DNA of 64,000 bases from Minisyncoccota bacterium (GCA_040905715.1 JBBDRA010000003.1:135075-199074), one strand, 5' to 3'. Counted from the stretch's first letter, positions 11,799 through 34,750 are shown. Numbers and translations are program-made. The notes: generated by a model from the letters alone, not told the origin.

Positions 11799-11881
11799 GG
11801 AGGGGTCGGATAATGGCTATTCCACCGCTTTCGAAAAGCGGCGCCTTCACGGGCTTGCGGGTTCGAGTCCCGCCCTCTCCG
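11799..11881 (+). tRNA. tRNA-Ser (anticodon CGA), long variable arm; apparent integration site of the downstream AT-rich island
   Basis: GGAGGGGTCGGATAATGGCTATTCCACCGCTTTCGAAAAGCGGCGCCTTCACGGGCTTGCGGGTTCGAGTCCCGCCCTCTCCG. Anticodon arm CCGCT-TTCGAAA-AGCGG, T-arm GCGGG-TTCGAGT-CCCGC. Confidence 0.75.
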
Positions 11882-11950
11882 CAGTAAAAATTTAGTATCG
11901 GAAGACCCGAATACCCTTATTTTTAGGGATTTCTAGAAACCGATGAAAGT

Positions 11951-12125
11951 GCAAAAAGTTCGAACCTTTGTGGGGCAGTAGTCACGTGATATAGACAGTG
12001 TCTCCTGAAATAACCATATTTTGCAATGCATATTTAGAACGAGTCATGGGTTCGAACTTTTGTGATTTTTGCTAAAAACAATAAAGTTCTATTTCAAGCC
12101 ATATTTTCAGTTCGAATCTTAGAGA
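11951..12125. promoter_or_regulatory. Three copies of a GTTCGAAC(C/T)TTTGTG-like motif between tRNA-Ser and the first island gene
   Basis: aaagGTTCGAACCTTTGTGggg at about 11958, gGGTTCGAACTTTTGTGatt at about 12048 and cAGTTCGAATCTTAGAG at about 12109. The GTTCGAAC core is palindromic. Confidence 0.3.
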
Positions 12126-12190
12126 CTTTTTTTCCGACATTGATTCCTCGCTCGATTGACTAAGGGTATATTTTCAATAGAATTAAAATA

Positions 12191-13132
12191 ATGTTGCTAG
12201 ACGCTTATAAAAAAATGTTCCTTATTCGAATTGCAGAGGAACAATTGGCTGATTATTATCTTAAAAATAAGATAATGAGCCTCGTTCATTTTTATGTTGG
12301 GCAGGAAGCGATAGCGGTCGGGGTATGTGATGCTTTACATAAAAATGATCGTGTTATGGGTAATCATCGATCCCATGGACACTATTTGGCTAAAGGGGGC
12401 GATCTTAAAAAAATGGTATGTGAATTGTTCGGAAAGGAATGTGGTTCGTCACATGGTAAAGGTGGCTCAATGCACATGATTGATACTTCAGTTAATTTCA
12501 TTGGATCAACACCAATTCTATCTAGCGCTGTACCGCTTTCATGCGGTAGTGCGCTTGAACAAAAATATCACAAAAGCGACATGATAACAGTCGTGTTTTT
12601 GGGTGACGGCGCATTTGAAGAAGGAGGTGTATATGAATCTTTGAATTTGTCCACGCTTTTTAAATTACCACTACTTATCGTTCTTGAGAATAATCTCCGG
12701 TCTATTGACACACGTCTTTGGGAACGTCGATCTTCCGCACACGATACTAAAAAGATCGTTACTGGATTTGGAGTGCAATATGTAAAAGCTGATGGGAATG
12801 ATTATTTAGATGTAGTAGGAAAAGTTAGAAAGCTTATTCCTGAAGTGCGCGAAGGAAAACCTGCTCTTATTGAGTGTATGACTTATCGTCATATGGCACA
12901 CAGCGGACCAACTTTTGAGGAAGAAACCCGCGAGGAGGATACTATAGAACAACGAAAGGAAAACGATTCAGTATTGAAGATTAGACAAAAAATACTCGAT
13001 TCAGGAATCACGGAGGAAGAGGTTATTGCCGTGGAGAATAATATTAAAAAAACTGTTACCAATGCCATCGTGTTTGCTAAGAGGGCACCTTTTCCGAAGA
13101 AAGAAAGCTTATACACCGATCTTTATGTCTAA
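12191..13132 (+). CDS. TPP-dependent 2-oxoacid (pyruvate/acetoin) dehydrogenase E1 component, alpha subunit
   Basis: YVGQEAIAVGV...GNHRSHGHYLAKGGD...GKGGSMHM...FLGDGAFEEGGVYESLN is the hallmark of E1 alpha (TPP-binding). Confidence 0.85.
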   Translation: MLLDAYKKMFLIRIAEEQLADYYLKNKIMSLVHFYVGQEAIAVGVCDALHKNDRVMGNHRSHGHYLAKGGDLKKMVCELFGKECGSSHGKGGSMHMIDTSVNFIGSTPILSSAVPLSCGSALEQKYHKSDMITVVFLGDGAFEEGGVYESLNLSTLFKLPLLIVLENNLRSIDTRLWERRSSAHDTKKIVTGFGVQYVKADGNDYLDVVGKVRKLIPEVREGKPALIECMTYRHMAHSGPTFEEETREEDTIEQRKENDSVLKIRQKILDSGITEEEVIAVENNIKKTVTNAIVFAKRAPFPKKESLYTDLYV

Positions 13133-14165
13133 TAGAATTATCACATACACTGAAGCAATTAAAGAAGCCACAGACCAAATAATGGATGTGGATCATAATG
13201 TTGTTGTTATGGGACTCGAAGTTTCATATAAAAATGGTGCAGACGGAACAACGGCCGGACTTAAGAAAAAATATCCTCACCGCATAATTGAAACACCTCA
13301 ATCAGAAAATGCAGTAACAGGAATGGCAGTTGGCGCTGCTATAACAGGCCTTCATCCTATTGTGCATCATGGCCGAGTTGAGTTCGCGCTCTTTGCTGCT
13401 GATCAAATATTTACACAGGCTGCGAAGTGGAATTATATGTTTGGCGGTGGACATCCTGTTCCAGTTGTGTTTAGGATAAACATCGGTCGTCAGTGGGGTC
13501 AGGGTCCTCAGCATACACAAGCTCTCTATTCACTCTTTGGTAACGCGCTTGGTATTAAAGTCGTTATTCCTTCTACGCCATCTATGGCAAAGGGTCTACT
13601 TATCTCGGCGGTTCGTGATAAAAATCCTGTAGTTATATTGGAGCCACGTTGGCTTTTTTCTTTGAAACAAAACGTGTCAATTGAATCATATGATAAACCG
13701 CTGGATAAAGCTGTTGTGGTGAATGAGGGAGCGGATGTTACAATTGTTGCTTATGGGGATGGTTTAATCGCGGCACATGAAGCTTTAGAACTGATTGGTG
13801 ATGATGTCGGCGTGGATCTTATAGATCTTGTTTCTATAAATCCGATTGATTATGAAACCGTCTATAAATCAGTAAAAAAAACAGGTCGAATTATCACAAT
13901 TGATACTACAAATCACGCCTTTAGTGTTGGCTCAGATATAATTTCTAATGTTGCGCAACAGAAGTTGCTACATTTGAAGAATATTCCAATTTCAATTTCT
14001 TGCCCCGATGTTCCGGTTCCGACATCAACAATACTGACTGAATCTTATTACCCAACCAAAGTGGACATTGCTAATACTGTGTTACGTCAATTGGGTAAAC
14101 CTACCATTAAGCACGATCTAACTTTTGAAGAAATTCACACTTCTCCTAATTACATTATTAAATAA
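13125..14165 (+). CDS. TPP-dependent dehydrogenase E1 component, beta subunit (transketolase-like)
   Basis: Start chosen at ATG 13125 (MSNRIITYTEAIKEA...), overlapping the alpha stop by 8 nt. ETPQSENAVTGMAVGAAITGLHPIV...ILEPRWLF... is typical of E1 beta. The ORF track's upstream start at 13026 would overlap alpha by 107 nt and is rejected. Confidence 0.8.
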   Translation: MSNRIITYTEAIKEATDQIMDVDHNVVVMGLEVSYKNGADGTTAGLKKKYPHRIIETPQSENAVTGMAVGAAITGLHPIVHHGRVEFALFAADQIFTQAAKWNYMFGGGHPVPVVFRINIGRQWGQGPQHTQALYSLFGNALGIKVVIPSTPSMAKGLLISAVRDKNPVVILEPRWLFSLKQNVSIESYDKPLDKAVVVNEGADVTIVAYGDGLIAAHEALELIGDDVGVDLIDLVSINPIDYETVYKSVKKTGRIITIDTTNHAFSVGSDIISNVAQQKLLHLKNIPISISCPDVPVPTSTILTESYYPTKVDIANTVLRQLGKPTIKHDLTFEEIHTSPNYIIK

Positions 14166-14346
14166 ATTGAACAAAAGATATTTATAAATAACATAAAATA
14201 AAAATTGATTTCATCCACTCGGACTTATCTATCTTCGATGTTTTGTGGTTTATATAGCTATTAATTACAAATCTATCAAAAGCGATAGGGGTGCTTAGAG
14301 ATTACATTTTACTATAGACTTAGGTAATGTTTTATGGTACTATAAT

Positions 14347-15921
14347 ATGGAAAATATGGAAAATAATAAACAAAAGTTTATAAGAGATAAAAACCTCCCT
14401 AAATCTATACGATCTGTAGTCCGCATGTATCCATCTAATCAGATCAACAGATTGTTCTATGGCGGACTACCTCACTTGGGTAATACACTTTTGAACTCTT
14501 GGAAATCTGTTGAAATACAAGAAGCCGCCAAAGTGTACGATGAGTATAGTCTATCCACAAACCTTCTCATTAGAGGCTTCAAGGAGCCTACGGTAGATAA
14601 AGTAAGATTAGGTGTCGGCAGTCCTGCACGTTTTAAGCCTTTTGATAGGTGTCTTGCGGGTATTAAAAATGCCTTGAAAGATAGAATTCTTTCTGACTAT
14701 CAATTAGCTGCGGGATATAGTGAGGATAAAAAACCAGTCATGAGATACTTAAAAGTTTCTCATGACTTAGAAACAAATGAGAATAATATTATTTTTACAC
14801 ATTCAAGTACACAGGCATTTACTCTTGTAATGGAAGCCATACTAGATTATGGAGATGTTGTTATTATGACAGCTCCTAATTATGGTCTTTTTTCTTTTAT
14901 CCCAGAAAGAGTTGGGGGTAAAGTCAGGCTTTTACCTCTTACGAGCACTGACAATTGGAAGATAAACCCTCAAGATCTAAAAAAACTCATTTCTAATACT
15001 AATGATGAACTTAAACAAGATTATGATGTGAATCGTGAAAAATATGTTTTAAGACGTTCTGATATAGCACCAAAAGTTTCTGCTTTTCTCAATTTAAATC
15101 CACATAACCCAACAGGGGTCGTTTATAGTAAAAAAGATGAGTCATTATTATTAGAAATTTCTAATATTTGCAAGGCCGCTGGTGTATTTATTATAGATGA
15201 TTTAGCTTATTCTGGTTTAGAATTTGATAGAAGTTCTACTGCATTACCCATGAATAGTTTAAAAGATCACTTTGAGAATACAATATCATTGTACTCTCTT
15301 TCTAAATCTTACGGGTTAGCTGGTTTAAGATCGGGTATGATCATTGCTAATGAGGTGATTATCTCTTTAATAAGAGATAAAATTTTTCAGAATCTAGATT
15401 CGTTGTCTTTACTGCAATCGGCAGCCATGAGTTCAACCTTCTTAATTGAGGATGATGCCACTACAGAAAAAGAGAAGTACTTTACTGATATTGCTAAGAA
15501 ATATTATGAGAGATATGTTTTTGCAAAATCAATTATTATAGGAGCTGATAAAATTAAAAGGAAAGAGAGAATACTTCTTAAGAAAATAATTCGTAATAAT
15601 AATCTTATTCTTGATATCGATAAATCTATGAGTGGTATCAAGGAGGTTAGTATAATACTTGATCCAGAATCAGGATTTTTTGTTCTTTTAGATTTTAGTA
15701 AATTGATTGGAAAATCTTATAAAGGATTTAAAATTACTGATGATACGACCTTGTTACAGTTTCTATACACCTCAGGCAATATTAAATTATTGACAGGCAA
15801 AGCATTTTGTTGGCCTAATCAAGACCAACTTGTTGCAAGAGTAACTATTGCATTTGATGACTACGAAGAATTACTGAAATCTTTCTTACGCCTCAAATCA
15901 TCTATAGAATTATTAAAATGA
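14347..15921 (+). CDS. PLP-dependent aminotransferase, class I/II fold, with ~150-aa C-terminal extension
   Basis: NPHNPTGVVYSKKDESLLLEI...FIIDDLAYSGLEFD...SLSKSYGLAGLRSGMIIAN carries the pyridoxal-lysine motif S-x-S-K-x-x-G-x-x-G-x-R of class I aminotransferases. Confidence 0.65.
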   Translation: MENMENNKQKFIRDKNLPKSIRSVVRMYPSNQINRLFYGGLPHLGNTLLNSWKSVEIQEAAKVYDEYSLSTNLLIRGFKEPTVDKVRLGVGSPARFKPFDRCLAGIKNALKDRILSDYQLAAGYSEDKKPVMRYLKVSHDLETNENNIIFTHSSTQAFTLVMEAILDYGDVVIMTAPNYGLFSFIPERVGGKVRLLPLTSTDNWKINPQDLKKLISNTNDELKQDYDVNREKYVLRRSDIAPKVSAFLNLNPHNPTGVVYSKKDESLLLEISNICKAAGVFIIDDLAYSGLEFDRSSTALPMNSLKDHFENTISLYSLSKSYGLAGLRSGMIIANEVIISLIRDKIFQNLDSLSLLQSAAMSSTFLIEDDATTEKEKYFTDIAKKYYERYVFAKSIIIGADKIKRKERILLKKIIRNNNLILDIDKSMSGIKEVSIILDPESGFFVLLDFSKLIGKSYKGFKITDDTTLLQFLYTSGNIKLLTGKAFCWPNQDQLVARVTIAFDDYEELLKSFLRLKSSIELLK

Positions 15922-16790
15922 AAATATATATTGTCTCATCAGAAAAGCACGCAGGAAAAATCCAAGAGGATGTTTATATGCGTGATGTTTACAGGAATAA
16001 TGGTTTTTCTTGCGAAATTCGCATCTTAAAAGACATTGTAAAGATCTCAAAACCCTTTGATGTGGTAATTTTAAAAAGTATCTGGGGATATCACTTACAT
16101 CATCGTGATTTTCTAAAGCAGATATTAATACTCAAGAAAAAAAATATTAAACTAATAAATGATTATGATTTTATTTTTTGGAATATTGACAAATATAAGT
16201 ACTTAGAGGAATTAAAGGACGTAAATGTAATTCCAACCACACTACTTAATTTTAAAAATACAAAGAAAAAATCAGAGATTATAGATATAATATTACAAAC
16301 AAATACAACATTAAATACGGATGTATTAGTTATTAAGCCTTGTATTTCAGAAAGTGGGTACTTAACACTTAAATACGATAAAGCAAAAGATAATAAAATT
16401 ATTATTTCCTCACTACAAAAGAATAAACAACTTAATTTTATTGCACAACCATATAGATCCAGTGTCTTGTCTGGAGAGATTTCCGTAGTTGTAATCAATG
16501 GAGTTCCTTTATACGGTATAAAGAGATTTCCTGGAATTTTTTGCGAAAAATTAAATCCAGTCTATATAAAGTTTGATAGTTTACCAATTACTATAAAAAA
16601 AGAAGTGAACGTATTAGGATCGTTTTTCTTAGCCAAGTTTGGTAGTTATCCTAATATATGCAGAATTGATTTCTTGAAGTTTAATACTACTTATGAAGTT
16701 TTGGAGGTAGAATTGATAGATCCTGATTTATTCTTTAGGTACACACCAGACAGTTTGAGAGAAAAAGCAACTCTCATGATTAATAAATAA
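15918..16790 (+). CDS. ATP-grasp-like ligase (RimK/GshB-like), divergent
   Basis: VIKPCISESGY...FIAQPYRSSVLSGEISVVVINGVPLYGIKRF resembles the ATP-grasp C-terminal half (IxQxY...GxEIRVxVIGG). Weak. Confidence 0.4.
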   Translation: MKIYIVSSEKHAGKIQEDVYMRDVYRNNGFSCEIRILKDIVKISKPFDVVILKSIWGYHLHHRDFLKQILILKKKNIKLINDYDFIFWNIDKYKYLEELKDVNVIPTTLLNFKNTKKKSEIIDIILQTNTTLNTDVLVIKPCISESGYLTLKYDKAKDNKIIISSLQKNKQLNFIAQPYRSSVLSGEISVVVINGVPLYGIKRFPGIFCEKLNPVYIKFDSLPITIKKEVNVLGSFFLAKFGSYPNICRIDFLKFNTTYEVLEVELIDPDLFFRYTPDSLREKATLMINK

Positions 16791-16803
16791 TTTATAATTA
16801 ACT

Positions 16804-17274
16804 ATGTATAGAAAAGGAGTTTCAGCAATTATAGTCAACCAAGAGAATGAGTTTCTCTTGGTTAATTTAGAATCTTTTGAGGAGAAGTATTTTGCTATTC
16901 CGGGTGGTGGAGTTGAGCAGGAAGAAGAACTAAAAGATGCTGTGTATAGAGAAATAGAAGAAGAGTTGAATATAGAGAAAAAATCTCTTTTACTGATTGG
17001 AAAAAGTAATTTACCAGTAATGATTAAATTTAAAACCATTAAGTTTAATGATGGTGGTAAAGAATTTGATGGAATGGAAAGATATTTTTTCGGATTTAAA
17101 TTTATTGGTGATGATAAGATAATAACCCCGAACCCCGGAGAGGTGCGAACTTACAAATGGGTTGCGTACGACAATTTGAAAGACTATCTTTTATTTGATA
17201 ATCAATTAGAAGAAACAACAGAAAAAATACTTGAAATATTCAGCACGGAAATAACCCCTAACAAAGGATCATAA
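16804..17274 (+). CDS. NUDIX hydrolase
   Basis: NUDIX box GGGVEQEEELKDAVYREIEEELNI (G-x5-E-x7-R-E-U-x-E-E-x-G-U). Confidence 0.85.
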   Translation: MYRKGVSAIIVNQENEFLLVNLESFEEKYFAIPGGGVEQEEELKDAVYREIEEELNIEKKSLLLIGKSNLPVMIKFKTIKFNDGGKEFDGMERYFFGFKFIGDDKIITPNPGEVRTYKWVAYDNLKDYLLFDNQLEETTEKILEIFSTEITPNKGS

Positions 17275-17383
17275 ATATTATTATTTGACACCATAATCAT
17301 ATCGTGTTAATTTGTACATAGATTCATTATATGTTGTTCTGATTTTAAGATCTGTTCTTCACATCCAAAAACGGAGGTAAGTC

Positions 17384-18073
17384 ATGAAAGAAGTATCGAA
17401 AAGTTACGAAGAAGTTAAGACGATGCAGGAGTCCTTTTGGGAAACCATCCACAGCAGAGGCGAGTGGTGGGATTTGTGTTTCGTTCCCAACCCACTCGCC
17501 ACTGACCTTCAAGAAATTCTCCCAGCGAGATCAAAAATTTTGGAGGTCGGTTGCTCTTCAGGGAGAGATGCGAGGTACTTCGCATCTCATGGTCACTTCA
17601 TTGTGGCTATGGATTTTTCAAAAAATGCCTTGAAGCGAATGATGGATCACGCAAGAAAACAAGGCATTGATGTACAAATAACACCTGTACACAAAAACGT
17701 GGCGGAAGGTCTCCCTGATTTTCAGGCGGATTCAATTGATTGTTTCTATTCTCGGTCATCTCTTCATGTTGATGATGACACTATGGTGCAGTTGGCTAAA
17801 AAGATTAGCCTCTACACAAAAAAGGGTGGTATTATTGCTATCGAAGGAAGAACTGAGAATGACACCCCGATATTGGAAAGTGAGGATATCGGTGATGGGT
17901 TGGCAATCAATTGGAAGCAGGGAGGGCACCTACGACGCATTTGGAGAAAAGACTTTTGTATACAACTTGCGAAAGATCTTTCCTGGGAGATTATAACTCT
18001 CGAGGATCGTCATGATGATCTAGGAAACGAAAAGAACCTCCTGCGTTTTGTTGCCAAAAAAGGCTCTGTGTAA
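17384..18073 (+). CDS. Class I SAM-dependent methyltransferase
   Basis: Motif I ILEVGCSSGRDARYFASHGHFIVAMDFS and later acidic motifs. Rossmann-fold MTase. Confidence 0.7.
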   Translation: MKEVSKSYEEVKTMQESFWETIHSRGEWWDLCFVPNPLATDLQEILPARSKILEVGCSSGRDARYFASHGHFIVAMDFSKNALKRMMDHARKQGIDVQITPVHKNVAEGLPDFQADSIDCFYSRSSLHVDDDTMVQLAKKISLYTKKGGIIAIEGRTENDTPILESEDIGDGLAINWKQGGHLRRIWRKDFCIQLAKDLSWEIITLEDRHDDLGNEKNLLRFVAKKGSV

Positions 18074-18153
18074 AATACAGAGCCTTTTTTTATAATTTAT
18101 AATTTATTTTAAAGTCTGTATACTGATATGTAAGCATACGGAGCTAAATTTTT

Positions 18154-19380: not shown

Positions 19381-19446
19381 TCAATCTATCGCAACATGTT
19401 TAATTATTAATAAACACCAGACGAAATATGGATAATAAAATTAGGT

Positions 19447-20340: not shown

Positions 20341-20404
20341 TTAGATCTTTGAAAAAGTTATAGTGGACACCAAAAAGTTTAGATCTAATCCCCTGATTAA
20401 AAAA

Positions 20405-20433
20405 GTGCCCAGACAGTAAAACTGTTTGGGCAC
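20405..20433. terminator. Bidirectional hairpin terminator between convergent dehydrogenase (+) and ndk (-) genes
   Basis: GTGCCCAGACAGtaaaaCTGTTTGGGCAC: 11/12 complementary arms preceded by AAAAA. Confidence 0.5.
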
Positions 20434-24406: not shown

Positions 24407-24408
24407 TT

Positions 24409-26688: not shown

Positions 26689-26690
26689 TT

Positions 26691-27383: not shown

Positions 27384-27389
27384 AACATT

Positions 27390-28427
27390 ATGACTTTAAT
27401 GACAATATTTATAGTGGTTTGGATTGTGCTAACAATTTACATTCCATACAAATTTAAAGAAAGAGGTATCCAAGAGATGCAAACTATTGCAACTACGTTT
27501 GGTATCCTTGGAACATTTATCGGTATTATTGTTGCTTTGTATAATTTTGATACTTCGAACATTGAAGCCGCGGTTCCATTGTTGCTCGACGGATTAAAGT
27601 TTGCTTTTGTAACATCTATTTTTGGAATGTTAACATCTTTACTTATTGGACTTTTTCCTCAAAAATTTGGACACGGTGTTGCCAATGAAGAGGGTGTAAC
27701 TGAAGACAAGGATAAATCAGAGCCAGAATTACTCGCTGAGTTACTTTCAGAAGTTAAAATTCTTAATGGGAATATATCTGGAGAAAGCGATACTACTTTA
27801 ATTACGCAAATTCAAAAAATGCGAACAAGTATTGTAGATAAGCAAGATGATCTAAATAAGGCTTTTGACAAATTTGCCGAAGATATGGTTAATAGTAATA
27901 TTGACGCTCTCGCAGAAGCTATTGAAAAAGTAATGGGTGATTTTAACACGACAGTTAATGAAAAGTTGGGCAGGACCTTTGATGATTTTAAGAAATCAGT
28001 GGAAAATCTTAATGTTTGGCAATCTGAGTATAAAGCTCAGATATTGTCTCAAACTGAAAATATGAAATCAGTTGCAGACTCACTAAGTACTACAGAAAAA
28101 AGTATGAGTGAGGTTAAAGATTCTTATCAAGAAATTGTTTCTATAAAAGAAAAATTTGATGAGCTTCTTAAAAACCTGAATGCGCAATTACAAGGTAGTT
28201 TAGATTTTGCAGACGCAATGAAAGACTTAACAACTGATCTAGAAGGATCGGGCGATGTTATAAAAGAAGAGATGAAAGAGATTACTTATGGAGCTGCTAC
28301 AGAAATGGAAAAAACAATGAATAAAACATTAGCTGATTTTGGGAGTAGTTTAGCAGATATTTCTGGAAAATTAGCGGAGAATTTTGGAAAAATGCAGCGA
28401 GCACTTGATAGTCATGAAAATAACTAA
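27390..28427 (+). CDS. MotA/ExbB/TolQ-like proton-channel protein with ~240-aa C-terminal coiled-coil tail (compact ZorA-like)
   Basis: Three N-terminal TM helices carry the MotA-family motifs FGILGTFIGIIVAL and LKFAFVTSIFGMLTSL. The remainder is E/K/L/Q-rich and predicted coiled-coil. Confidence 0.6.
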   Translation: MTLMTIFIVVWIVLTIYIPYKFKERGIQEMQTIATTFGILGTFIGIIVALYNFDTSNIEAAVPLLLDGLKFAFVTSIFGMLTSLLIGLFPQKFGHGVANEEGVTEDKDKSEPELLAELLSEVKILNGNISGESDTTLITQIQKMRTSIVDKQDDLNKAFDKFAEDMVNSNIDALAEAIEKVMGDFNTTVNEKLGRTFDDFKKSVENLNVWQSEYKAQILSQTENMKSVADSLSTTEKSMSEVKDSYQEIVSIKEKFDELLKNLNAQLQGSLDFADAMKDLTTDLEGSGDVIKEEMKEITYGAATEMEKTMNKTLADFGSSLADISGKLAENFGKMQRALDSHENN

Positions 28428-28432
28428 TATCT

Positions 28433-29245
28433 ATGGAAAAGGACGAATTTAACAATAAAATATCGGATATAGTAAGCTATTTTGATGACATTAAACAAAG
28501 AATCGGTGCTAAAGATACGGGGTTTGTGATAGTGCCAAGAGAATTGAAAACTCCAACTGGTAAATTTAATGCTGGTAAACCAATTACTGGTGCTGAATTA
28601 CAAAGAATTTCTAAAAATTGGAAATCAAAAGATCCTTTGATTGATGAGGAAGGTAATGCGTTCGTTCTTTATATACCTGATTTTACAAGTAATCATTATA
28701 GGAGAGGCTTTTCTCCAGAAAATTTACCAAAGTATCATACTTCTTGGTGTTGGACATTAGATAATATGAAGGAATCAGGAAGAATGAAAAGATATATTAA
28801 AAAGACGGATATAGAAACAAATATCTTTAAAGGGAAAAAGGATGGAGATAGAAATATTGAGAGTGTATTATATGCTTGTCAAAATTGTAGAAAAACATTA
28901 GAAGATATTTACGGAAGAAATATGTATTTTGACGTTAAAAATATGGATATGCTCAAGTTTTTCTCTTTGTACGGAAAACATTATTTATATGACCCTAAAG
29001 TGAAAAAACCTTATTCTGTAATGTATCCAAAACATTGGGATGAAATTTCAAAGAAATATAGAGAAAAAGCAAATTGGAAGTGTGATCAGTGTGGTGAGTC
29101 TTTCGCGAATAACAAAAAGGAATTAGATGTTCACCATATAAATGGAATTAAAAGTGATGTTAGGGATACAAACCTAAAAGTTTTATGTAAAAAACATCAT
29201 GCTGAACAACCTATGCATAGTCATTATAACAAAATTATAAATTAG
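28433..29245 (+). CDS. HNH endonuclease (ZorE-like)
   Basis: C-terminal HNH motif CDQCGESF...DVHHINGIKSDVRDTNLKVLCKKHHA, plus an earlier CQNCRK cysteine pair (zinc-binding). Starts 5 nt after the preceding gene. Confidence 0.7.
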   Translation: MEKDEFNNKISDIVSYFDDIKQRIGAKDTGFVIVPRELKTPTGKFNAGKPITGAELQRISKNWKSKDPLIDEEGNAFVLYIPDFTSNHYRRGFSPENLPKYHTSWCWTLDNMKESGRMKRYIKKTDIETNIFKGKKDGDRNIESVLYACQNCRKTLEDIYGRNMYFDVKNMDMLKFFSLYGKHYLYDPKVKKPYSVMYPKHWDEISKKYREKANWKCDQCGESFANNKKELDVHHINGIKSDVRDTNLKVLCKKHHAEQPMHSHYNKIIN

Positions 29246-29250
29246 TATTT

Positions 29251-30723
29251 ATGAATTTAACAAAAACAGACTTTAAAGAATACTTAATTTGCCCCAAATG
29301 GTTATGGGTAAAGAAAAAGAAACCTGAACTTGCAGTTGAGGGTGAGATGTCGCTATTCCTGAAGAAACTTATTAAAGATGGATATGAGGTTGAGGAATTC
29401 GCTCAGCAGATGTTTCCAAGTGGTGTTGAGATAACTGGCAACTCAGGTGTACTGAAAGAAAAAACTCAGGAATATCTAGAAAAAAATCAAACAATGTTTC
29501 AAGCGACTTTTGAGACAGACAGAGGCTTGTTTGCAAAGGCAGACGTTCTCGAATTTGATGAAGAAAGTGGTAAGTGGAATATCTATGAAATTAAGGCAAG
29601 TTCTTCAATCAAGACCGATCTTCAACATAATCATCTAAAAGATATTACATTTCAAACAATCGTCGCCGAAGAATCAGGGATTCCTATAAATAAAAGTTTT
29701 ATCATCCATATCAATAAGGAATACAAACGAGAGGGTGAAATAAACCCAAGAGAATTATTTGTTATAGAAGACGTCTCTAAAGATGTCCAAGAAGGTAAAG
29801 AAAAAGTAAACCAAGAAATTGAGACTGCTTTAGATTTTTTAAGTAAAGATAAAATCTCAATGGAAGGTTGTGAGTGTTTATACAAATCACACGGACAAAG
29901 ATGTGATTCATTCACAGTCTTTAACCCTAAGGTGCCTGAATATTCAGTTCATCATATCGTTGGTGGAAAGAAACTCCTCTCACTTATTGAAACTGATGTA
30001 TTTGATGTGAAAGAGATTCCAGAAGATTTTAATCTTACCGATAAGCAACAAGAAAAAGTCACACTCCAAAAAACCGGTAAGCCAATAATCGATGAAGAGT
30101 CAATCAGAGAAACGCTTTCTAATTTAACTTTCCCTCTGTATTTCTTAGATTATGAGACTTTTGGTAAGCCATATCCAATACTTGATGGATACACCTCAAA
30201 TCAGCAGATTGTATTTCAATACTCACTACATATTCTAAAGGAAGATGGTTCTTTAGAGCATCGTGAGTATTTAGCTGATGATTTTGAGAATGCCACAAAA
30301 GGACTCCTTGATCATATGAATGAGCATATTGGCCCTACAGGAACTGTTGTCGTCTGGTATGAATCATTTGAAAAAGGAAGAAATAGGGAGCTTGCTGAAA
30401 TACATTCAGAATATGCTGACTTTCTGCACAATATAAACAGCCGAATCTACGATCTAATGCTTATATTTAAAAAAGATTACCTACACCCTGATTTTTATGG
30501 GAGTGCCTCTATCAAAAAAGTGCTTCCTGTAATGCTTCCAGAATTATCCTACAAGAACTTAGAAGTTCAAGACGGAACAATGGCTATGAGCGAATGGGAG
30601 AAGATAGCTACTGGAAAAATTACAGGTGAAGAGGCAGAAGAATTACGAAAACATCTACTGGAATACTGTGAACGAGATACGTTTGCGATGGTTGAGTTGT
30701 TTAAGAAGCTACAACAATTATAA
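29251..30723 (+). CDS. Cas4/RecB-like PD-(D/E)xK nuclease with Fe-S cysteine set, fused to a C-terminal RNase-H-like domain (DUF2779-like architecture)
   Basis: N-terminal YLICPKWLW. Catalytic ADVLEFDE...IYEIKAS (D...ExK). The Cys cluster CECLYKSHGQRC together with the N-terminal Cys gives a Cas4-type 4-Cys arrangement. The C-terminal LYFLDYETF...VVVWYESFEKG resembles the FLDFET RNase-H-like domain. Confidence 0.6.
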   Translation: MNLTKTDFKEYLICPKWLWVKKKKPELAVEGEMSLFLKKLIKDGYEVEEFAQQMFPSGVEITGNSGVLKEKTQEYLEKNQTMFQATFETDRGLFAKADVLEFDEESGKWNIYEIKASSSIKTDLQHNHLKDITFQTIVAEESGIPINKSFIIHINKEYKREGEINPRELFVIEDVSKDVQEGKEKVNQEIETALDFLSKDKISMEGCECLYKSHGQRCDSFTVFNPKVPEYSVHHIVGGKKLLSLIETDVFDVKEIPEDFNLTDKQQEKVTLQKTGKPIIDEESIRETLSNLTFPLYFLDYETFGKPYPILDGYTSNQQIVFQYSLHILKEDGSLEHREYLADDFENATKGLLDHMNEHIGPTGTVVVWYESFEKGRNRELAEIHSEYADFLHNINSRIYDLMLIFKKDYLHPDFYGSASIKKVLPVMLPELSYKNLEVQDGTMAMSEWEKIATGKITGEEAEELRKHLLEYCERDTFAMVELFKKLQQL

Positions 30724-30762
30724 ATATGATGCATGTTATTGAACTTATAAATTATCTTACAG

Positions 30763-31605
30763 ATGTTTTCAAAGTTAATTTTTTTAAAAGACAAACTGTT
30801 TCTTAAAATAAGAAACAAAAAGGATGTAAGACTATACACCTTCAAATCAAAACTACTGCTATATGGAAAAAGAAATTTTAAGCAATATTTCACGATAGCA
30901 AGAGACGGAACTGTGACAGAGAGGATTCTTTTGAATGTACCTGATGTTTCATTAAGAGAAGAAATTATTTGTAAACACTACCTTTCTTTTTTAGTTAAAA
31001 ACTTAATAAAGGAACCTATCGGTATCAACTTGCTAAAAAGGGATCAGCCATGGGATTTTAGTGTTGAGCTCAGTAATGGTGATAAGTTTAATATAGAAAT
31101 CACATCAATCGCTGAAAACAAGGAGTTGTTTGAGAAATTAAAACGTGAAGAGGAGTTTGAAAAAATAGTCGCGAGAAAAAATATTTTATTGCGCGAACTC
31201 AAAAAAATCCATTTCTGGTTTCGTAACAAAAAGGCAAAACAGACCATCAATGATGCTGAAGAAAATTTTTTAAATAAAAACGATAAAGTATTGAATCCTT
31301 TTTACAATTATCCAAGCAGGATTTTCTATAGTAGTTACATAAAGAATGAGGGGGACTCTCTGAAAGATTTGATATCAGGAGCAATTAAAAGAAAGGTGTC
31401 CAAGTCTCATTTAGATAAAGATAAAACTATTTTAATAATTGATAACCGAACTATCCAATTCGGCCTGGAAGACATTTTTTGGGTAATTAAGGAGTTAGAA
31501 GTTGAGTGTGCACACATTCCTTTTCCTGAGATTTATTTCTACACAGGCCACTACTCAGATGACGATGGGAATAATGCTAGGTATTCATTCGTACCCCTTA
31601 AGTAA
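30763..31605 (+). CDS. Hypothetical protein (280 aa), possible degenerate PD-(D/E)xK-like core
   Basis: AT-rich ORF with no clear family. DFSVELSNGDKFNIEITS might be a D...E-x-(K/T) nuclease-like core. Speculative. Confidence 0.35.
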   Translation: MFSKLIFLKDKLFLKIRNKKDVRLYTFKSKLLLYGKRNFKQYFTIARDGTVTERILLNVPDVSLREEIICKHYLSFLVKNLIKEPIGINLLKRDQPWDFSVELSNGDKFNIEITSIAENKELFEKLKREEEFEKIVARKNILLRELKKIHFWFRNKKAKQTINDAEENFLNKNDKVLNPFYNYPSRIFYSSYIKNEGDSLKDLISGAIKRKVSKSHLDKDKTILIIDNRTIQFGLEDIFWVIKELEVECAHIPFPEIYFYTGHYSDDDGNNARYSFVPLK

Positions 31606-31663
31606 CCAGAAAAACATTAAAAACATGCTCACGTCCCTCAGCTATCGAGTTTTCTGAGGGGGG

Positions 31664-32278
31664 TTACCGTTTATTTCTCCTTATCTTTTTTCTATCAAGA
31701 AGTTTCTGAAGATTATCCGCCACCTCTTTAGCTCCGTCTATTTTCAATTTATCTTTTACATCATAAAACTGATCAAAGAAATCATTTATAATATGACGCA
31801 CCTCCTCGCTAGTTCGTTCTTTGGTTCCAAGTTCTTTAATTCTTTTCGATAGCTCGTGAACCAAATCTTCTTTACTTATTTTCTGTTTTTTTCTGCCTCT
31901 ATACTTTTCTATATTGGGTTCTTTATAACCACAAACCCGACATGTTTCTCCAGATTCAAGTTTGTGTGGATGAGTAACTGGATCGACATAAGTTGTACGA
32001 ACTGGTTTGTATCTCGGATTGTTGTATTGAAGCCAGAATATAATAAGGCGAGCATTTTCGTTTTTGATGCCTTTAATAACCGCTGACTCAGCCATGTCAT
32101 TTATGTTCTGCCGACCTATTTCCAATATCGCATCAGTCTGATCACGAAAGTCTTTATCATCCTTACGCCATCTGTAGTAGGTGGTTCGATCAAGGCCGAT
32201 TTTCTTACAGGCAAAAGACACAATTGGTGTCTCTGCCAATATTTGTAATAGTTTCGATTTATCACCCAACCTAGCCAT
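31664..32278 (-). CDS. Phage terminase small subunit (TerS)-like HTH protein
   Basis: N-terminal HTH PIVSFACKKIGLDRTTYYRWRKDDKDF followed by NARLIIFWLQYNNPRY. Compare the aaIFwLKNRrPExW pattern of phage TerS proteins. Confidence 0.5.
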   Translation of the reverse strand: MARLGDKSKLLQILAETPIVSFACKKIGLDRTTYYRWRKDDKDFRDQTDAILEIGRQNINDMAESAVIKGIKNENARLIIFWLQYNNPRYKPVRTTYVDPVTHPHKLESGETCRVCGYKEPNIEKYRGRKKQKISKEDLVHELSKRIKELGTKERTSEEVRHIINDFFDQFYDVKDKLKIDGAKEVADNLQKLLDRKKIRRNKR

Positions 32279-33587
32279 TAATCTTTACCCGTTTCTTACC
32301 CGTATATTTCTCCCATCTATTCAAGATCACTTCCGTATAGACATTCGATTTTTCCATGAGGAAACAACGCCTATTTAACCTATTGGCTGCGATTAAGGTA
32401 GATCCGCTTCCACCAAACGGTTCATACACCAATTCGTCTCTTTTCGTTAGTATCTTTATATACGGAATCAGTATTTCTACAGGTTTCGTGCCAAAGATAA
32501 TTCCCTGACCGCTAGATTTTTCATCCGCCGCATTATGTTCAATAAAGTCAGTTGGGCAGTACTTTTTGTTTTTTCCATATGACTCCCAGTGTGGTTTGCC
32601 GGATATAGCAAACAGAGCGGTTTCGTATTCATTTTCAACAAGTTCCCCCTCTTGTTCTAAATTAACCTCTTTGTTATCCGTACCAACCATAGCAATGTCA
32701 TACTTTGAAAAGAGTTTGTGCTTTCCGGCATACCCTTGATTTCTGTTGGGGAGATGCCAGATAAGCATATTCCTGACTTTCCAGTATTTCTCCATCTCAT
32801 TCCAGATCGTCCTGATATTTTTCCAGTTTTCATAGACAATGATAGCGAAATGCTCGTCTTGTATTTTATTCACATTCGCCATCCACTTTTCGGTAAAGTC
32901 TTCGGGGATAGATTCGGTTTCTAAGTACCTTCTGTTTTTCTTGGCTCCAAAGCCGGTGGTTGCTTCACCGTGTTTAGTCTTGCCGTGTAGGTAATCTAAA
33001 ATATATGGAGGGTCCGTCATAACCATCTGGGCTTTTTCTTTACCAAACAGTTTTGTGACATCTGCCTCTGTTGTGCTATCACCACACATTAAGCGTGACC
33101 CATCGAGATCATAGATATCTCCCTTTTTGACAGTGACTTCTTTGATATCCAGTTTTTCTAGTTCTTTTTGGAGATCAAAAAGTTCTTCTTCGTGATCTTC
33201 GTCGAAAATAATATCTAGTTCTTCGGAATCAAATCCGATGTCAGCTAGAATGGTTTCATCGAATTCTGCCAAAAGGTCATAATTAAATTCTCCTTGATTT
33301 TTGTTTAAACGAAGATTTAATTCTTTTTCTTTTTCCTCGGTTAGATCAAGAAAAACCACAGGAATAGTTGTGTGACCAAGCTCCTTACACACCTCGAGTC
33401 GAAAGTGGCCACCAATAACGACATTGGTTCTCTCTTTATTTTTATTAACAATCAACGGATCAATTGTGCCAAAACGATTGATACTCTCTTTTAATTGTTT
33501 TTTCTGAAATTCATCCCATGTACGAGGATTATATTCAGAAGCGTGAAGTAGATTTATATCTACATATTCTATTTTGATGTTGCTCAT
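32271..33587 (-). CDS. ParB-like nuclease domain fused to N6-adenine/N4-cytosine DNA methyltransferase (orphan MTase)
   Basis: N-terminal ParB/Srx domain (IEYVDINLLHASEYNPRTW...GGHFRLEVCKELG). MTase motif IV MVMTDPPY and motif I VYEPFGGSGSTLIAA. No adjacent restriction endonuclease. Confidence 0.8.
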   Translation of the reverse strand: MSNIKIEYVDINLLHASEYNPRTWDEFQKKQLKESINRFGTIDPLIVNKNKERTNVVIGGHFRLEVCKELGHTTIPVVFLDLTEEKEKELNLRLNKNQGEFNYDLLAEFDETILADIGFDSEELDIIFDEDHEEELFDLQKELEKLDIKEVTVKKGDIYDLDGSRLMCGDSTTEADVTKLFGKEKAQMVMTDPPYILDYLHGKTKHGEATTGFGAKKNRRYLETESIPEDFTEKWMANVNKIQDEHFAIIVYENWKNIRTIWNEMEKYWKVRNMLIWHLPNRNQGYAGKHKLFSKYDIAMVGTDNKEVNLEQEGELVENEYETALFAISGKPHWESYGKNKKYCPTDFIEHNAADEKSSGQGIIFGTKPVEILIPYIKILTKRDELVYEPFGGSGSTLIAANRLNRRCFLMEKSNVYTEVILNRWEKYTGKKRVKING

Positions 33588-33677
33588 AATAACTTAATAA
33601 TTAAACTAATAAACCGTAGCTTTTTGCTACGGTCTTATTTAATCATTAAAAATTTTTGGATTTCATAAAAAAGTACC

Positions 33678-34388
33678 TCACTTTTTTATGAACTTTTTAA
33701 ATACCCGATCCCTTATCTTTTTTATTTGGTCGGATATATTATATATCTCTGACTTACTCGGTCTTTTTCCAGTCTTATCTTCTATAAAGTCTGCTATATC
33801 CTCTGATGTTCTGGTGATATATTCTTGGTCTCCATAGTCAAAATAAATTCTTTTGTTTTCCCATTGATCTTTGATTGCGAGTTTTCTATCTAAATCTTTT
33901 ATTTTCTTGTTAGAAAAAAGTCTCTTACCAAAAAACTTATTTGTAAACTCTTTTATAGTTAACCAATCTTTGTCAGTTAATTTATTATTTATAGTAAGTT
34001 GTACCGCTCTATTTCCAACAGTTGGTTTGATAGAAAAAGGTAACCCTGGAAGTTTTTTAATTTCACCAGTTATTATGTATTGTCTTATCGTCTCAAACCA
34101 GTTATCAGGATAATTAAAGTCCTTAATTATCTCTTGGATACTTGCAGTAAAATAGTTTATGAGTTCCTCCGCATTTTCCTTATGTAGTAATTTATTAAAC
34201 CAAGCCTCAATTGATTGATCCTCATCTTTAGATTCGCTATCTCCATAAAGGCCTTCAGGGATTTCTAAATAGGATCGAATTTCTTGAATTCTTTTTCCAA
34301 ATTCTGGATCACTAAAAGCCAATCGTATATTGTCTTTGTTTCTAGAGCCGTATTCACTTATTTTCCGTTTTAAACCCTTATCTTTCAT
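33678..34388 (-). CDS. Hypothetical protein (236 aa), basic/acidic K/E-rich
   Basis: ORF with island-like AT-rich composition. No recognisable motif. Confidence 0.35.
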   Translation of the reverse strand: MKDKGLKRKISEYGSRNKDNIRLAFSDPEFGKRIQEIRSYLEIPEGLYGDSESKDEDQSIEAWFNKLLHKENAEELINYFTASIQEIIKDFNYPDNWFETIRQYIITGEIKKLPGLPFSIKPTVGNRAVQLTINNKLTDKDWLTIKEFTNKFFGKRLFSNKKIKDLDRKLAIKDQWENKRIYFDYGDQEYITRTSEDIADFIEDKTGKRPSKSEIYNISDQIKKIRDRVFKKFIKK

Positions 34389-34726
34389 TGTTTTGATGAT
34401 AGTTTGTTTGTATTATGAAAGCAACAGTTATATGCTCCCTCGTGTAGTATTTGTTGCATTTTTTACAAGTTACAGCCCGACCCGACCTCCTCAAAATCCG
34501 CTATACTAAAACCACCAAGAAACCCTTGTGGGGCTTGAAATAATTTATTACTTAACCCGAACTGCCCGCCGAAGAGTTTTGCGATGAGGTGGAGAGGGCG
34601 AGCGCAGTATTTTTGAAAAAAATACGTCGCGCGGACTCGAAAAGGTTCTTTAGATATTTTGTGAGCTTGCCTGCTGGCAGGCAGGGAACGAGACAAAATA
34701 TCAAAAACCTGTACTGATCCTGTAAG

Positions 34727-34750
34727 GATCGAGTCCCGCCGCCTCCGCAG
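34727..34750 (+). repeat. Direct repeat of the tRNA-Ser 3' end (attR-like)
   Basis: TCGAGTCCCGCCgcCTCCGCAG here versus TCGAGTCCCGCCctCTCCGCAG at 11862-11883, 20/22 identical in the same orientation. It is followed by a 9-bp inverted repeat CCTCCGCAG...CTGCGGAGG. Confidence 0.55.

What the first reader, a model, noticed from the sequence alone, without database searches (positions are those of the whole stretch)
11799..34750. AT-rich ~23 kb island integrated at tRNA-Ser(CGA), bounded by an imperfect 22-nt direct repeat of the tRNA 3' end
The sequence TCGAGTCCCGCCctCTCCGCAG sits at the end of tRNA-Ser (11862-11883). It recurs at 34727-34750 with 20/22 identity in the same orientation. Everything between is visibly more AT-rich than the flanks. 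The interval also encodes a large serine recombinase, an Xis-like HTH, a TerS-like protein and a ParB-methyltransferase. One caveat applies. Serine integrases normally leave only a 2-bp crossover, not a long tRNA-end duplication. The repeat may therefore mark a composite or older tyrosine-integrase-type insertion. Alternatively, the metabolic half (12.2-20.9 kb) and the defence half may have been acquired separately.
Basis: partly seen in the sequence, partly recalled or inferred. Interest (0 to 1): 0.7.

Follow-up and report, generated by a model that had tools for sequence, protein, structure and literature searches.

The report
Serine-integrase island beside tRNA-Ser gene
A 22.7-kb block of foreign, AT-rich DNA carrying anti-phage and small-molecule genes sits directly after a serine tRNA gene of a tiny Patescibacteria bacterium and was most likely put there by its own serine integrase; the tRNA-like repeat thought to mark its end is instead part of a separate, conserved folded element found after many tRNA genes.

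Summary
tRNA-Ser(CGA) lies at 11799-11882. Its 3' end recurs at 34726-34750 (22/25 identical), and the DNA between has 35% GC against 46-47% in the flanks.

The repeat is not the island's scar. In relatives without an island, tRNA-Ser(CGA) and also tRNA-Glu, Phe and Val are followed 105-370 nt downstream by a copy of their own 3' end. That copy sits inside a folded element with strong covariation. The window's copy (34566-34750, 51% GC) lies outside the island.

The island's own large serine recombinase (LSR, 21121-22431) very probably inserted it. Close homologues (70-95% identical) lie beside tRNA-Ser genes in five other elements. All five show the same junction, tRNA...CTCCGC-A-N12-TATCGGAWGACCC. 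One of them also shares the far junction, TACTTAACCCGA-N5-CCGC.

So the island spans 11883-34569 (22,687 bp) between two 4-bp CCGC cores. Independent assemblies break exactly at 11882 and 34566, which suggests a second allele coexists.

The backbone looks phage-derived (ParB-methyltransferase, TerS-like protein, LSR). The cargo is a Type III restriction-modification system, a type II Zorya system and an 8.7-kb biosynthetic module.

The island is an ordinary kind of element. The tRNA-linked folded element is the unexpected part.

The parts
11799..11882 (+). tRNA-Ser(CGA), the integration target. It is left intact by the insertion.
   Evidence: ARAGORN; Rfam RF00005 at 49 bits.
11859..11914 (+). 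attL. B arm = tRNA T-arm/acceptor 3' strand (11859-11878). Core = CCGC (11879-11882). Element-side P' arm = 11883-11914, with the motif TATCGGAAGACCC at 11896-11908.
   Evidence: The same layout (CTCCGC, A, 12 nt, TATCGGAWGACCC) follows tRNA-Ser genes next to LSR homologues in L098-L101 (95% identical LSR), L102 (82%), L118 (70%) and L138 (72%). A 19-nt stretch is identical to L098-L101.
12191..20855 (.). Cargo slot 1, a biosynthetic module. E1 alpha (12191-13132), E1 beta (ORF 13026-14165), PLP enzyme (14347-15921), ATP-grasp (15918-16790), NUDIX (16804-17274), SAM methyltransferase (17384-18073), L-amino-acid-ligase-type ATP-grasp (18154-19380), D-2-hydroxyacid dehydrogenase (19447-20340), NDK (20433-20855, minus strand).
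   Evidence: Pfam. NCBIfam hits are all below equivalog cut-offs. The same gene order, without the methyltransferase, occurs in L141 with no LSR or tRNA nearby.
21121..22431 (-). Large serine recombinase (436 aa), the proposed integrase of the island.
   Evidence: Pfam Resolvase+Recombinase+Zn_ribbon_recom. PHROG 95 integrase at 5e-65. 8000 homologues, the top 120 at 68% identity or more. Best PDB match is SPbeta SprA/YokA.
22543..22746 (+). HTH_17/MerR-type 67-aa DNA-binding protein; its end overlaps the Mod start codon.
   Evidence: Pfam PF12728 at 8e-11. The same HTH_17-Mod adjacency occurs in L102.
22739..26688 (+). Type III restriction-modification system: Mod (22739-24406) and Res (24409-26688).
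   Evidence: PADLOC MTase_III at 5e-75 and REase_III at 2e-15; Pfam N6_N4_Mtase and ResIII.
26691..29245 (+). Zorya type II genes in the order ZorB (26691-27383), ZorA (27390-28427), ZorE (28433-29245).
   Evidence: PADLOC ZorB2 at 1e-66, ZorA2 at 1e-56, ZorE2 at 3e-43.
29251..31605 (+). DUF2779 protein with a Cas4-like nuclease N-terminus (29251-30723), followed by a 280-aa protein with no family match (30763-31605).
   Evidence: Pfam PF11074 at 2e-37; PADLOC Cas4 at 5e-9.
31664..34388 (-). Element backbone: TerS-like HTH (31664-32278), ParB_N-DNA methyltransferase (32271-33587), 236-aa unknown protein (33678-34388).
   Evidence: Pfam and PHROGs. The order ParB-MTase, TerS-like, variable region, LSR recurs in at least 12 loci. 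In L098-L101 a large terminase follows the TerS-like gene.
34478..34569 (+). Conserved right end of the element and attR. The 64-nt block is 34478-34541. The P arm includes TACTTAACCCGA (34549-34560). The core CCGC is 34566-34569.
   Evidence: L118 carries TACTTAACCCGAGTGGC-CCGC 12,988 bp from its attL. Related right-end sequences occur in L107, L109, L112 and L119. The 64-nt block is 95% identical in L012. Contigs end exactly at 34566.
34570..34750 (+). Native tRNA-linked folded element, not part of the island. P1 = 34633-34638 paired with 34731-34736. P2 = the long hairpin at about 34642-34711. P3 = 34716-34730. The tRNA-Ser 3'-end copy is 34726-34750.
   Evidence: Same architecture downstream of tRNA-Ser(CGA) in L023, L029, L030, L049, L050 and L057. 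Consensus fold with covariation. GC is 0.508.

Best explanation
The interval 11883-34569 (22,687 bp) is one integrative element of a family that is widespread in Patescibacteria. The element's own large serine recombinase (21121-22431) inserted it at the extreme 3' end of tRNA-Ser(CGA).

Recombination took place between an attB and an attP. attB consists of the tRNA's T-arm/acceptor 3' strand, a CCGC core and the native downstream sequence. attP is ...TACTTAACCCGAACTGC-CCGC-AGTAAAAATTTAGTATCGGAAGACCC.... Only the 4-bp CCGC is common to both junctions, and the tRNA stays intact.

The backbone (236-aa gene, ParB-methyltransferase, TerS-like HTH ... LSR) derives from a phage-like element. Close relatives still carry a large terminase and a diversity-generating retroelement. 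The window's copy has lost these and carries cargo in two variable slots:
- A defence block between the TerS-like gene and the LSR: Type III restriction-modification, type II Zorya and a DUF2779 nuclease.
- An 8.7-kb amino-acid-derived biosynthetic module between the LSR and attL.

The 25-nt tRNA-like repeat at 34726-34750 predates the insertion. It is the 3' tail of a conserved folded element that follows many tRNA genes in this lineage. The island simply landed between the tRNA and that element.

Shown: the anatomy, the family-wide conservation of both junctions, and the assembly breakpoints. Inferred: catalysis by this LSR, the current ability to excise, and the functions of the cargo.
For: 1. 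The LSR is full length with all three domains.
2. LSR homologues sit next to the 3' end of a tRNA-Ser gene: L098-L101 (95% identical, tRNA-Ser CGA), L102 (82%, GCT), L138 (72%, TGA) and L118 (70%, GGA). In each, TATCGGAWGACCC begins 14 nt after ...CTCCGC.
3. L118 also shares the far junction, TACTTAACCCGA-N5-CCGC, after which the sequences diverge. A shared 12-mer arises by chance in 58 of 2000 shuffles. Spacing to the CCGC is identical.
4. Contigs from independent assemblies end at exactly 11882: L006, and L093, a strain 99.5% identical. Others end at exactly 34566: L002, L003, L004, L097. The island-side unitig L011 overlaps by 30 nt, as expected at a k=31 branch. This pattern is what alleles sharing only flank+CCGC would give.
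5. GC is 0.354 against 0.46-0.47 in the flanks.
6. In relatives, TrxB lies 1.8-5 kb from tRNA-Ser/Glu.
7. The backbone synteny ParB-MTase, TerS-like, variable region, LSR recurs in at least 12 loci.
8. The tRNA-end copy occurs downstream of tRNAs in relatives that have only 1.8-5 kb at this locus. There were 19 cases among 113 tRNAs, where my own calculation expects about 0.01 by chance.
9. In L057 the P' motif follows the second copy, so that copy is itself an attB-like target.
Against: - No contig or read showing the empty attB or the circular attP junction was seen. Allele coexistence is inferred from breakpoints only.
- Both ends are visible in only one other element (L118).
- The P and P' arms show little inverted symmetry, unlike many characterised serine-integrase attP sites.
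- The LSR lies 9.2 kb from attL, against 0.7-4 kb in relatives.
- No recombination directionality factor is identified.
- One MAG contig (L005/L092) ends at 11927, not 11882.
- The 64-nt right-end block also occurs in L012 between TrxB and thiol-redox genes. That context does not look like an element.
Confidence: 0.8

Rival explanations
1. A tyrosine-integrase-type insertion split tRNA-Ser. The island restored the gene, and the displaced native 3' fragment (34726-34750) marks the right end, so the island would be 11885-34750.
For: The 22/25 repeat is far beyond chance. It extends 3 nt past the tRNA end. It has the orientation and position expected from the classical tDNA-island rule (Islander, PMC4383910 abstract).
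Against: - No tyrosine recombinase appears among the ORFs of the interval that I scanned with Pfam and PHROGs.
- The same tRNA-end copy, at the same distance, follows tRNA-Ser(CGA) in relatives with only 1.8-5 kb at this locus. It also follows tRNA-Glu, Phe and Val.
- The segment 34566-34750 is GC-rich like the host.
- Assemblies break at 34566, not at 34726-34750.
- The element-family right end stops at the CCGC core, 34566-34569.
Confidence: 0.05
2. Two independent elements lie in tandem. A metabolic island (12.2-20.9 kb) would have its own attachment sites, next to a separate LSR defence island (21.0-34.6 kb).
For: The metabolic module exists as a unit without an LSR in L141. The LSR lies in the middle of the interval. 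Related elements have only a single small gene (L098-L101, L102; L118 has about 3 kb) between the LSR and the tRNA. The methyltransferase inside the module has a different GC (0.436) and is absent from L141.
Against: - The element-specific P' arm, with 19 nt identical to the 95%-LSR elements, lies to the left of the metabolic module at 11896-11914. The module is therefore inside the att-bounded unit.
- No P or P' motif and no tRNA fragment occurs in 20856-21120.
- No second recombinase is present.
- The two halves have nearly the same GC, 0.349 and 0.359.
Confidence: 0.1
3. The 185-nt segment with the tRNA-like tail (34566-34750) belongs to the mobile element as its right terminus. The copies next to tRNAs in relatives would then be remnants of decayed elements.
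For: The segment directly abuts the island. Such copies are present in only about a third of tRNA-Ser(CGA) loci (6 of 19). Element bodies at different tRNAs of one genome resemble each other, with 85% identity over 72 nt between the tRNA-Phe and tRNA-Leu copies.
Against: - The relatives' copies lack the P' motif that a decayed LSR element should leave beside the tRNA.
- The tail matches each genome's own tRNA sequence, with 0-2 mismatches in 16.
- L118's element ends at the CCGC with no such segment after it.
- The segment's GC is host-like.
- Contigs coming from TrxB run through the segment and stop at 34566.
Confidence: 0.05

Closest known systems
Serine-integrase prophages and islands (SPbeta SprA, Listeria A118, TP901-1, Bxb1, phiC31)
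   Same: A three-domain large serine recombinase. Short attachment sites with a very short common core and no long duplication. The Bxb1 abstract states substrates under 50 bp (PMC1470463). The integrase is encoded by the element, with cargo and phage genes between attL and attR.
   Different: Only about 25% identical to any characterised phage integrase. The best solved relative is SPbeta SprA at E = 8e-11. The target is the 3' end of tRNA-Ser genes, not a protein-coding gene. The arms show little inverted symmetry. No structural phage genes remain in this copy. No directionality factor is recognised.
SCCmec-type cassette chromosomes (Ccr large serine recombinases); comparison from my own knowledge
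   Same: A cargo-rich, non-phage island moved by large serine recombinases into the extreme 3' end of a conserved housekeeping RNA-related gene, without inactivating it. The recombinase gene lies in the middle of the element, not at its edge.
   Different: SCC elements use a CcrA/CcrB pair or CcrC and target rlmH. They are flanked by 15-18-bp direct repeats. Here there is a single LSR, a tRNA target and only a 4-bp shared core. The phylum and the cargo also differ.
tDNA genomic islands made by tyrosine integrases (Islander definition, PMC4383910)
   Same: Integration at the 3' end of a tRNA gene, an intact tRNA after insertion, foreign composition, and accessory cargo.
   Different: No tyrosine integrase is present. 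The nearby tRNA fragment is not a displaced fragment created by this insertion.
Phage-inducible chromosomal islands / phage satellites; comparison from my own knowledge
   Same: An integrase plus a small-terminase-like gene, without a large terminase or structural genes. A close relative with a 95% identical integrase does carry a large terminase, as a helper phage would.
   Different: No replication, repressor or capsid-remodelling genes are recognised. Packaging or induction has not been tested. The TerS assignment rests on weak profile hits plus synteny.
Zorya type II and Type III restriction-modification defence systems
   Same: All signature proteins match PADLOC profiles strongly.
   Different: The gene order is ZorB-ZorA-ZorE, not A-B-E. 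ZorA is short, 316-345 aa against profile lengths of 420-590. The host is a Patescibacteria bacterium. The only paper I found that mentions both Zorya and Patescibacteria does so in passing.

Membership tests
Large-serine-recombinase integrative element | Recombinase with an N-terminal resolvase catalytic domain, a recombinase domain and a zinc-ribbon domain. | tested here: met
   PF00239, PF07508 and PF13408 all score above their cut-offs. PHROG 95 integrase at 5e-65.
Large-serine-recombinase integrative element | attL and attR share only a very short core, with arms conserved among elements that have related recombinases. | tested here: met
   CCGC is the only sequence common to both junctions. 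The P' arm is conserved in five elements and the P arm in L118.
Large-serine-recombinase integrative element | The recombinase catalyses attP x attB recombination, and an RDF reverses it. | not testable with these tools
   Only indirect evidence exists: assembly breakpoints exactly at the two cores. No RDF was recognised.
Tyrosine-integrase tDNA island | A tyrosine integrase gene inside the island. | tested here: not met
   No Phage_integrase-type hit in the ORFs of 11.8-35.9 kb that I scanned, which were the main ORFs of at least 70 aa plus the 67-aa HTH_17 ORF.
Tyrosine-integrase tDNA island | A displaced tRNA fragment, created by the insertion, marks the distal end. | tested here: not met
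   The fragment is present in relatives with only 1.8-5 kb at this locus. It lies 157 nt outside the junction.
Prophage | Genes for large terminase, portal, capsid, tail and lysis. | tested here: not met
   Pfam and PHROGs find only a TerS-like HTH and a ParB-methyltransferase. A large terminase is present in the relatives L098-L101 but not in the window.
Zorya type II | ZorA (MotA-like), ZorB (MotB/OmpA-like) and ZorE (HNH) encoded together. | tested here: met
   PADLOC scores of 1e-56, 1e-66 and 3e-43 on adjacent genes at 26691-29245. The order is B-A-E. Function is untested.
Type III restriction-modification | Adjacent Mod methyltransferase and Res helicase-nuclease. | tested here: met
   PADLOC MTase_III at 5e-75 and REase_III at 2e-15.
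Known RNA families (tRNA, tmRNA, group I intron, small ribozymes), tested for the tRNA-linked folded element | A match to an Rfam covariance model. | tested here: not met
   No match with E at or below 10 except a chance miRNA hit. No gathering-score match in seven relatives' loci. The Patescibacteria tRNA group I introns in the literature sit in the anticodon loop (PMC13011429 abstract).

The most novel reading that the evidence does not exclude
The 22-nt 'repeat' belongs to an undescribed family of structured, tRNA-linked elements in Patescibacteria.

Anatomy. A segment of 100-200 nt follows a tRNA gene. It folds into a three-way junction. P1 pairs an upstream GGANTCG with a copy of the tRNA's own T-loop/T-stem. 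P2 is a long variable hairpin. P3 is a short hairpin with a GTA loop. The segment ends in an exact copy of the tRNA's acceptor 3' strand and discriminator.

The window holds at least two copies: one after tRNA-Ser (34566-34750) and one after tRNA-Leu(TAA) (minus strand, 58839-58625).

Possible roles. It could be a functional RNA, such as a tRNA-end mimic, decoy or processing element. It could be a miniature non-autonomous integrated element with a folded attachment site. In either case its tail offers a second attB for the tRNA-targeting serine integrases, as seems to have been used in L057.
Probability: 0.4. Interest if true: 0.7.

Novelty: new member of a known kind. Interest (0 to 1): 0.45.

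Why it matters
- **The island.** It shows that Patescibacteria, whose genomes are small (from my own knowledge), exchange defence systems (Type III restriction-modification, Zorya II) and a biosynthetic module on a serine-integrase element. The work also defines, from sequence alone, testable attP and attB sites for a very large recombinase clade. That clade is unusually conserved (about 8000 homologues, the top 120 at 68% identity or more) and recognises the shared 3' end of all tRNA-Ser isoacceptors. This is useful for mobile-element annotation in metagenome-assembled genomes and as a candidate integrase toolkit.
- **Method.** The case is a warning. In this lineage a tRNA-fragment repeat near a tRNA is not evidence of an island boundary.
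- **The folded element.** If real as an RNA or as a miniature mobile element, the tRNA-linked element would be a new feature of tRNA loci and worth experimental follow-up.

Tried and rejected
- **Third copy of the repeat.** I looked for a third copy, or a tRNA pseudogene around the second copy. There were only two matches and no tRNA-like Rfam hit at 34300-35000.
- **Tyrosine integrase.** I checked the unannotated ORFs of 236, 280, 297, 141 and 100 aa. None had a family hit.
- **The 64-nt block (34478-34541).** I first took it for native sequence or an ncRNA, because L012 has it beside TrxB and thiol-redox genes. I later found it to be part of the element family's conserved right end. An exact-pattern scan of JGI metagenomes for it found nothing.
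- **Inverted symmetry between the P and P' arms.** None was convincing. The only near match to the inverted P' motif (34644-34656, 3 mismatches) is no better than chance.
- **GTTCGAA motifs at 11955-12127 as att remnants.** They are not significant.
- **IMG/VR scans.** The scan for the P' arm gave no hit. The LSR scan gave two loci. The ParB-MTase scan gave one weak locus. None showed a free attP.
- **Identity of the folded element.** I rejected hammerhead and other small ribozymes, tmRNA, SRP RNA, RNase P RNA and a group I intron. There are no Rfam hits, and the order of its junction strands does not fit a hammerhead.
- **A universal acceptor-like closing stem in the folded element.** It is present in some copies (the window, L023, L031) but not in all.
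- **Exact-protein look-ups.** Look-ups of the LSR and of E1 alpha found nothing on record, probably because contigs break inside the island.

Full report
**1. Checking the observation**

ARAGORN and Rfam both place tRNA-Ser(CGA) at 11799-11882. Its last 25 nt plus trailer, GGTTCGAGTCCCGCCCTCTCCGCAG (11860-11884), recur at 34726-34750 as GGATCGAGTCCCGCCGCCTCCGCAG. No dinucleotide shuffle produced a second match.

GC is 0.462 in the left flank, 0.471 in the right flank and 0.354 across 11883-34565. A Mann-Whitney test on 1-kb windows gives p = 5e-19, and GC3 follows the same split. The 185 nt ending at the repeat (34566-34750) are GC-rich (0.508). A further AT-rich 1.1 kb (34751-35877, 0.340) lies between the repeat and TrxB.

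**2. Gene content and organism**

- The flanks carry housekeeping genes: TsaD and an HTH protein on the left; TrxB, FtsZ and FtsA on the right.
- The organism is a Candidatus Paceibacterota (Patescibacteria) bacterium. Contigs 100% identical to the window occur in Logan assemblies of SRR27977658/61/62/63 and in NCBI MAGs.
- 12191-20855 holds a biosynthetic module. Its genes are PDH-E1-like alpha and beta subunits, a GntC/VioD-like PLP enzyme, a DcsG-like ATP-grasp, NUDIX, a SAM methyltransferase, an L-amino-acid-ligase-type ATP-grasp, a D-2-hydroxyacid dehydrogenase and, on the other strand, NDK. All NCBIfam hits are below equivalog cut-offs.
- 21121-22431 (-) is a large serine recombinase (LSR).
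- 22543-31605 (+) holds an HTH_17 protein, a Type III Mod and Res, ZorB2-ZorA2-ZorE2, a DUF2779/Cas4-like nuclease and an unknown protein.
- 31664-34388 (-) holds a TerS-like HTH, a ParB_N-methyltransferase and a 236-aa unknown protein.
- No tyrosine recombinase was found.

**3. The repeat is older than the island**

I printed the DNA downstream of every tRNA-Ser(CGA) in the fetched relatives. This showed that L023, L029, L030, L049, L050 and L057 carry a copy of their own tRNA's last 16-22 nt about 105-185 nt downstream. L049 has only 1.8 kb between TrxB and tRNA-Ser.

A systematic scan found such copies (two mismatches or fewer in 16) for 19 of 113 distinct tRNAs:
- Ser(CGA): 6 of 19
- Glu(TTC): 8 of 40
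- Glu(CTC): 1 of 8
- Phe: 2 of 7
- Val: 2 of 24

By my own calculation, chance would give about 0.01 such cases. The copy tracks each genome's own tRNA sequence.

The DNA between the tRNA and its copy has a common architecture. In the window's subtype an alignment of six copies gives a three-way junction: P1, a long P2 hairpin and a short P3 hairpin with a GTA loop. Of 25 pairs, 18 show compensatory changes. 91.9% of cells are paired, against 64.9% in shuffles and 30-51% when partners are slid. P1 pairs GGANTCG with the copy's CGANTCC, and N co-varies with the T-loop of the cognate tRNA.

A covariance model built from these six finds further copies, for example L018 at 1e-13 and L063 at 3e-11. 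Not all of them are next to a tRNA or keep the tail. Nothing in Rfam matches. The published Patescibacteria tRNA group I introns sit in the anticodon loop. The window holds a second copy, of another subtype, downstream of tRNA-Leu(TAA) on the minus strand at 58839-58625.

**4. The true junctions**

*Size of the recombinase family.* The LSR has about 8000 homologues, and the top 120 are all at least 68% identical.

*Left junction.* In the orientation that puts the LSR on the + strand, the nearest homologue (95% identical, contigs L098-L101) sits in this order: DGR - two methyltransferases - TerS-like - large terminase - LSR - HNH - tRNA-Ser(CGA)(-) - tRNA-Glu(+). The 82% homologue (L102) lies beside tRNA-Ser(GCT). 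The 72% homologue (L138, IMG/VR) lies beside tRNA-Ser(TGA). The 70% homologue (L118) lies beside tRNA-Ser(GGA). In every case the tRNA's ...CTCCGC is followed by A, 12 variable bases and TATCGGAWGACCC (L138 has TATCGGATGTGACCC). In the window this motif is at 11896-11908, and 19 nt are identical to L098-L101.

*Right junction.* Window 34549-34569 reads TACTTAACCCGAACTGC-CCGC. L118 reads TACTTAACCCGAGTGGC-CCGC at a point 12,988 bp from its attL. After the CCGC the two sequences diverge. Related right-end sequences occur in L107, L109, L112 and L119. The common core is therefore CCGC, at 11879-11882 and 34566-34569. The island is 11883-34569, or 22,687 bp counting one core.

*Independent support from assemblies.* Contigs approaching from the left stop at exactly 11882. 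These are L006 and L093, the latter a strain 99.5% identical. Contigs from the right stop at exactly 34566: L002, L003, L004 and L097. The island-side unitig L011 overlaps them by 30 nt, which is k-1 for k=31. A second allele sharing only flank+CCGC, such as an empty site or an excised circle, would produce exactly these ends.

**5. What the island is**

The order ParB-methyltransferase, TerS-like HTH, variable region, LSR, tRNA recurs in at least 12 metagenomic loci. Some of these carry a large terminase, so the backbone is phage-derived. The window's copy has no terminase large subunit and no structural genes. It is a defence and metabolic island, perhaps satellite-like, and not a prophage.

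The metabolic module is syntenic, except for the methyltransferase, with a chromosomal cluster in L141. That cluster has no LSR or tRNA within 10 kb, and its GC equals its surroundings. The module is therefore captured cargo. It lies inside the element, because the element-specific P' arm is to its left. No att-like motif separates it from the LSR.

The HTH_17 gene overlaps the Mod start codon and also precedes Mod in L102, although its orientation relative to the LSR differs there. I therefore assign it to the restriction-modification cassette and not to excision.

**6. Comparison with what is known, and verdict**

The element works like serine-integrase prophages and, in its layout, like SCC cassettes. 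The recombinase is only about 25% identical to any characterised phage integrase. A tRNA 3' end is an uncommon target for this enzyme class; that statement rests on my own knowledge. The element fails the two defining tests of a tyrosine-integrase tDNA island.

The role assigned to the repeat is not supported. The island itself is a new member of a known kind. The tRNA-linked folded element it landed next to is the part I cannot place in any known family.

**7. Limits**

- No read-level proof of attB or attP was obtained.
- Both ends are visible in only one other element.
- All functions are inferred from profiles and synteny.
- The nature of the folded element (RNA, folded DNA site, or remnant) is open.

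Noticed in passing
window 58625-58839 (minus strand), between tRNA-Leu(TAA) and tRNA-Lys: A second tRNA-linked folded element, of a different subtype. P1 is CGGGAGTCG (58757-58749) paired with CGACTCCCG (58641-58633). Its tail GACTCCCGCCTCGCCCAC copies the tRNA-Leu 3' end. Its body is 85% identical over 72 nt to the element downstream of tRNA-Phe, just left of the window (L093 12094-12165).
   Followed up: partly
window 34478-34541; L012 11002-11065: A 64-nt block is 95% identical between the window and a relative whose coding genes are only 72-81% identical to the window's. In L012 it sits 77 nt after TrxB and is followed by thiol-redox genes (peroxiredoxin-like, CcdA, redoxin, DsbA). It contains the hairpin CCACCAAG-AAACC-CTTGTGG. 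A similar motif occurs inside tRNA-linked elements of L095 and L059. It appears to be part of the element family's right end, but the L012 context is unexplained.
   Followed up: partly
window 11963-11976 and 34521-34534: A subterminal direct repeat, AACCYTTGTGGGGC (13/14 identical). One copy lies about 80 nt inside attL and the other about 35 nt inside attR. It may be an accessory-protein site or a small hairpin; I did not test this.
   Followed up: no
window 34837-35730 (+): An AT-rich (0.33 GC) ORF lies between the folded element and TrxB, outside the island. Its N-terminal half reads as hydrophobic (membrane-spanning by eye) and its C-terminal half is cysteine-rich. It has no Pfam, PHROG or NCBIfam hit and no homologue in the fetched relatives' loci. 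It may be an older acquisition.
   Followed up: partly
L014, L024, L030, L045, L053, L060 (relatives' loci): More distant LSR genes (24-34% identical) abut the 3' end of tRNA-Glu in six relatives, convergent with the tRNA. L113 has one beside tRNA-Asn. L106/L107 have one 4 kb from tRNA-Leu. L044 has a 50% homologue in an AT-rich R-M island after tRNA-Glu. Serine recombinases next to tRNA 3' ends look like a general theme in this phylum.
   Followed up: partly
L057 12315-12350: The element-side motif TATCGGAAGACCC follows the second (downstream) copy of the tRNA-Ser 3' end at the usual 13-nt spacing, but no LSR gene is nearby. This looks like the remnant of an element that used the copy, not the tRNA itself, as its attachment site.
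   Followed up: partly
window 26691-29245: The type II Zorya genes are in the order ZorB-ZorA-ZorE, and ZorA is short (316-345 aa), in a Patescibacteria host. A literature search found only one paper mentioning both Zorya and Patescibacteria, and only in passing.
   Followed up: partly
window 17384-18073: The SAM methyltransferase inside the biosynthetic module has a GC of 0.436 (GC3 0.43), against about 0.28-0.40 for its neighbours. It is absent from the otherwise syntenic cluster in L141. It is likely a later insertion into the module.
   Followed up: partly
window 4663-9564: The 1633-aa PKD-repeat surface protein gene contains long internal DNA repeats. One pair is 579 nt at 96.7% identity (5119-5697 and 5725-6303). 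Another is 245 nt at 100% identity (6840-7084 and 7647-7891).
   Followed up: no
L098 3311-4709: The element with the 95% identical LSR carries a diversity-generating retroelement (bAvd plus an RVT_1 reverse transcriptase) and a large terminase. The window's island lacks both.
   Followed up: no
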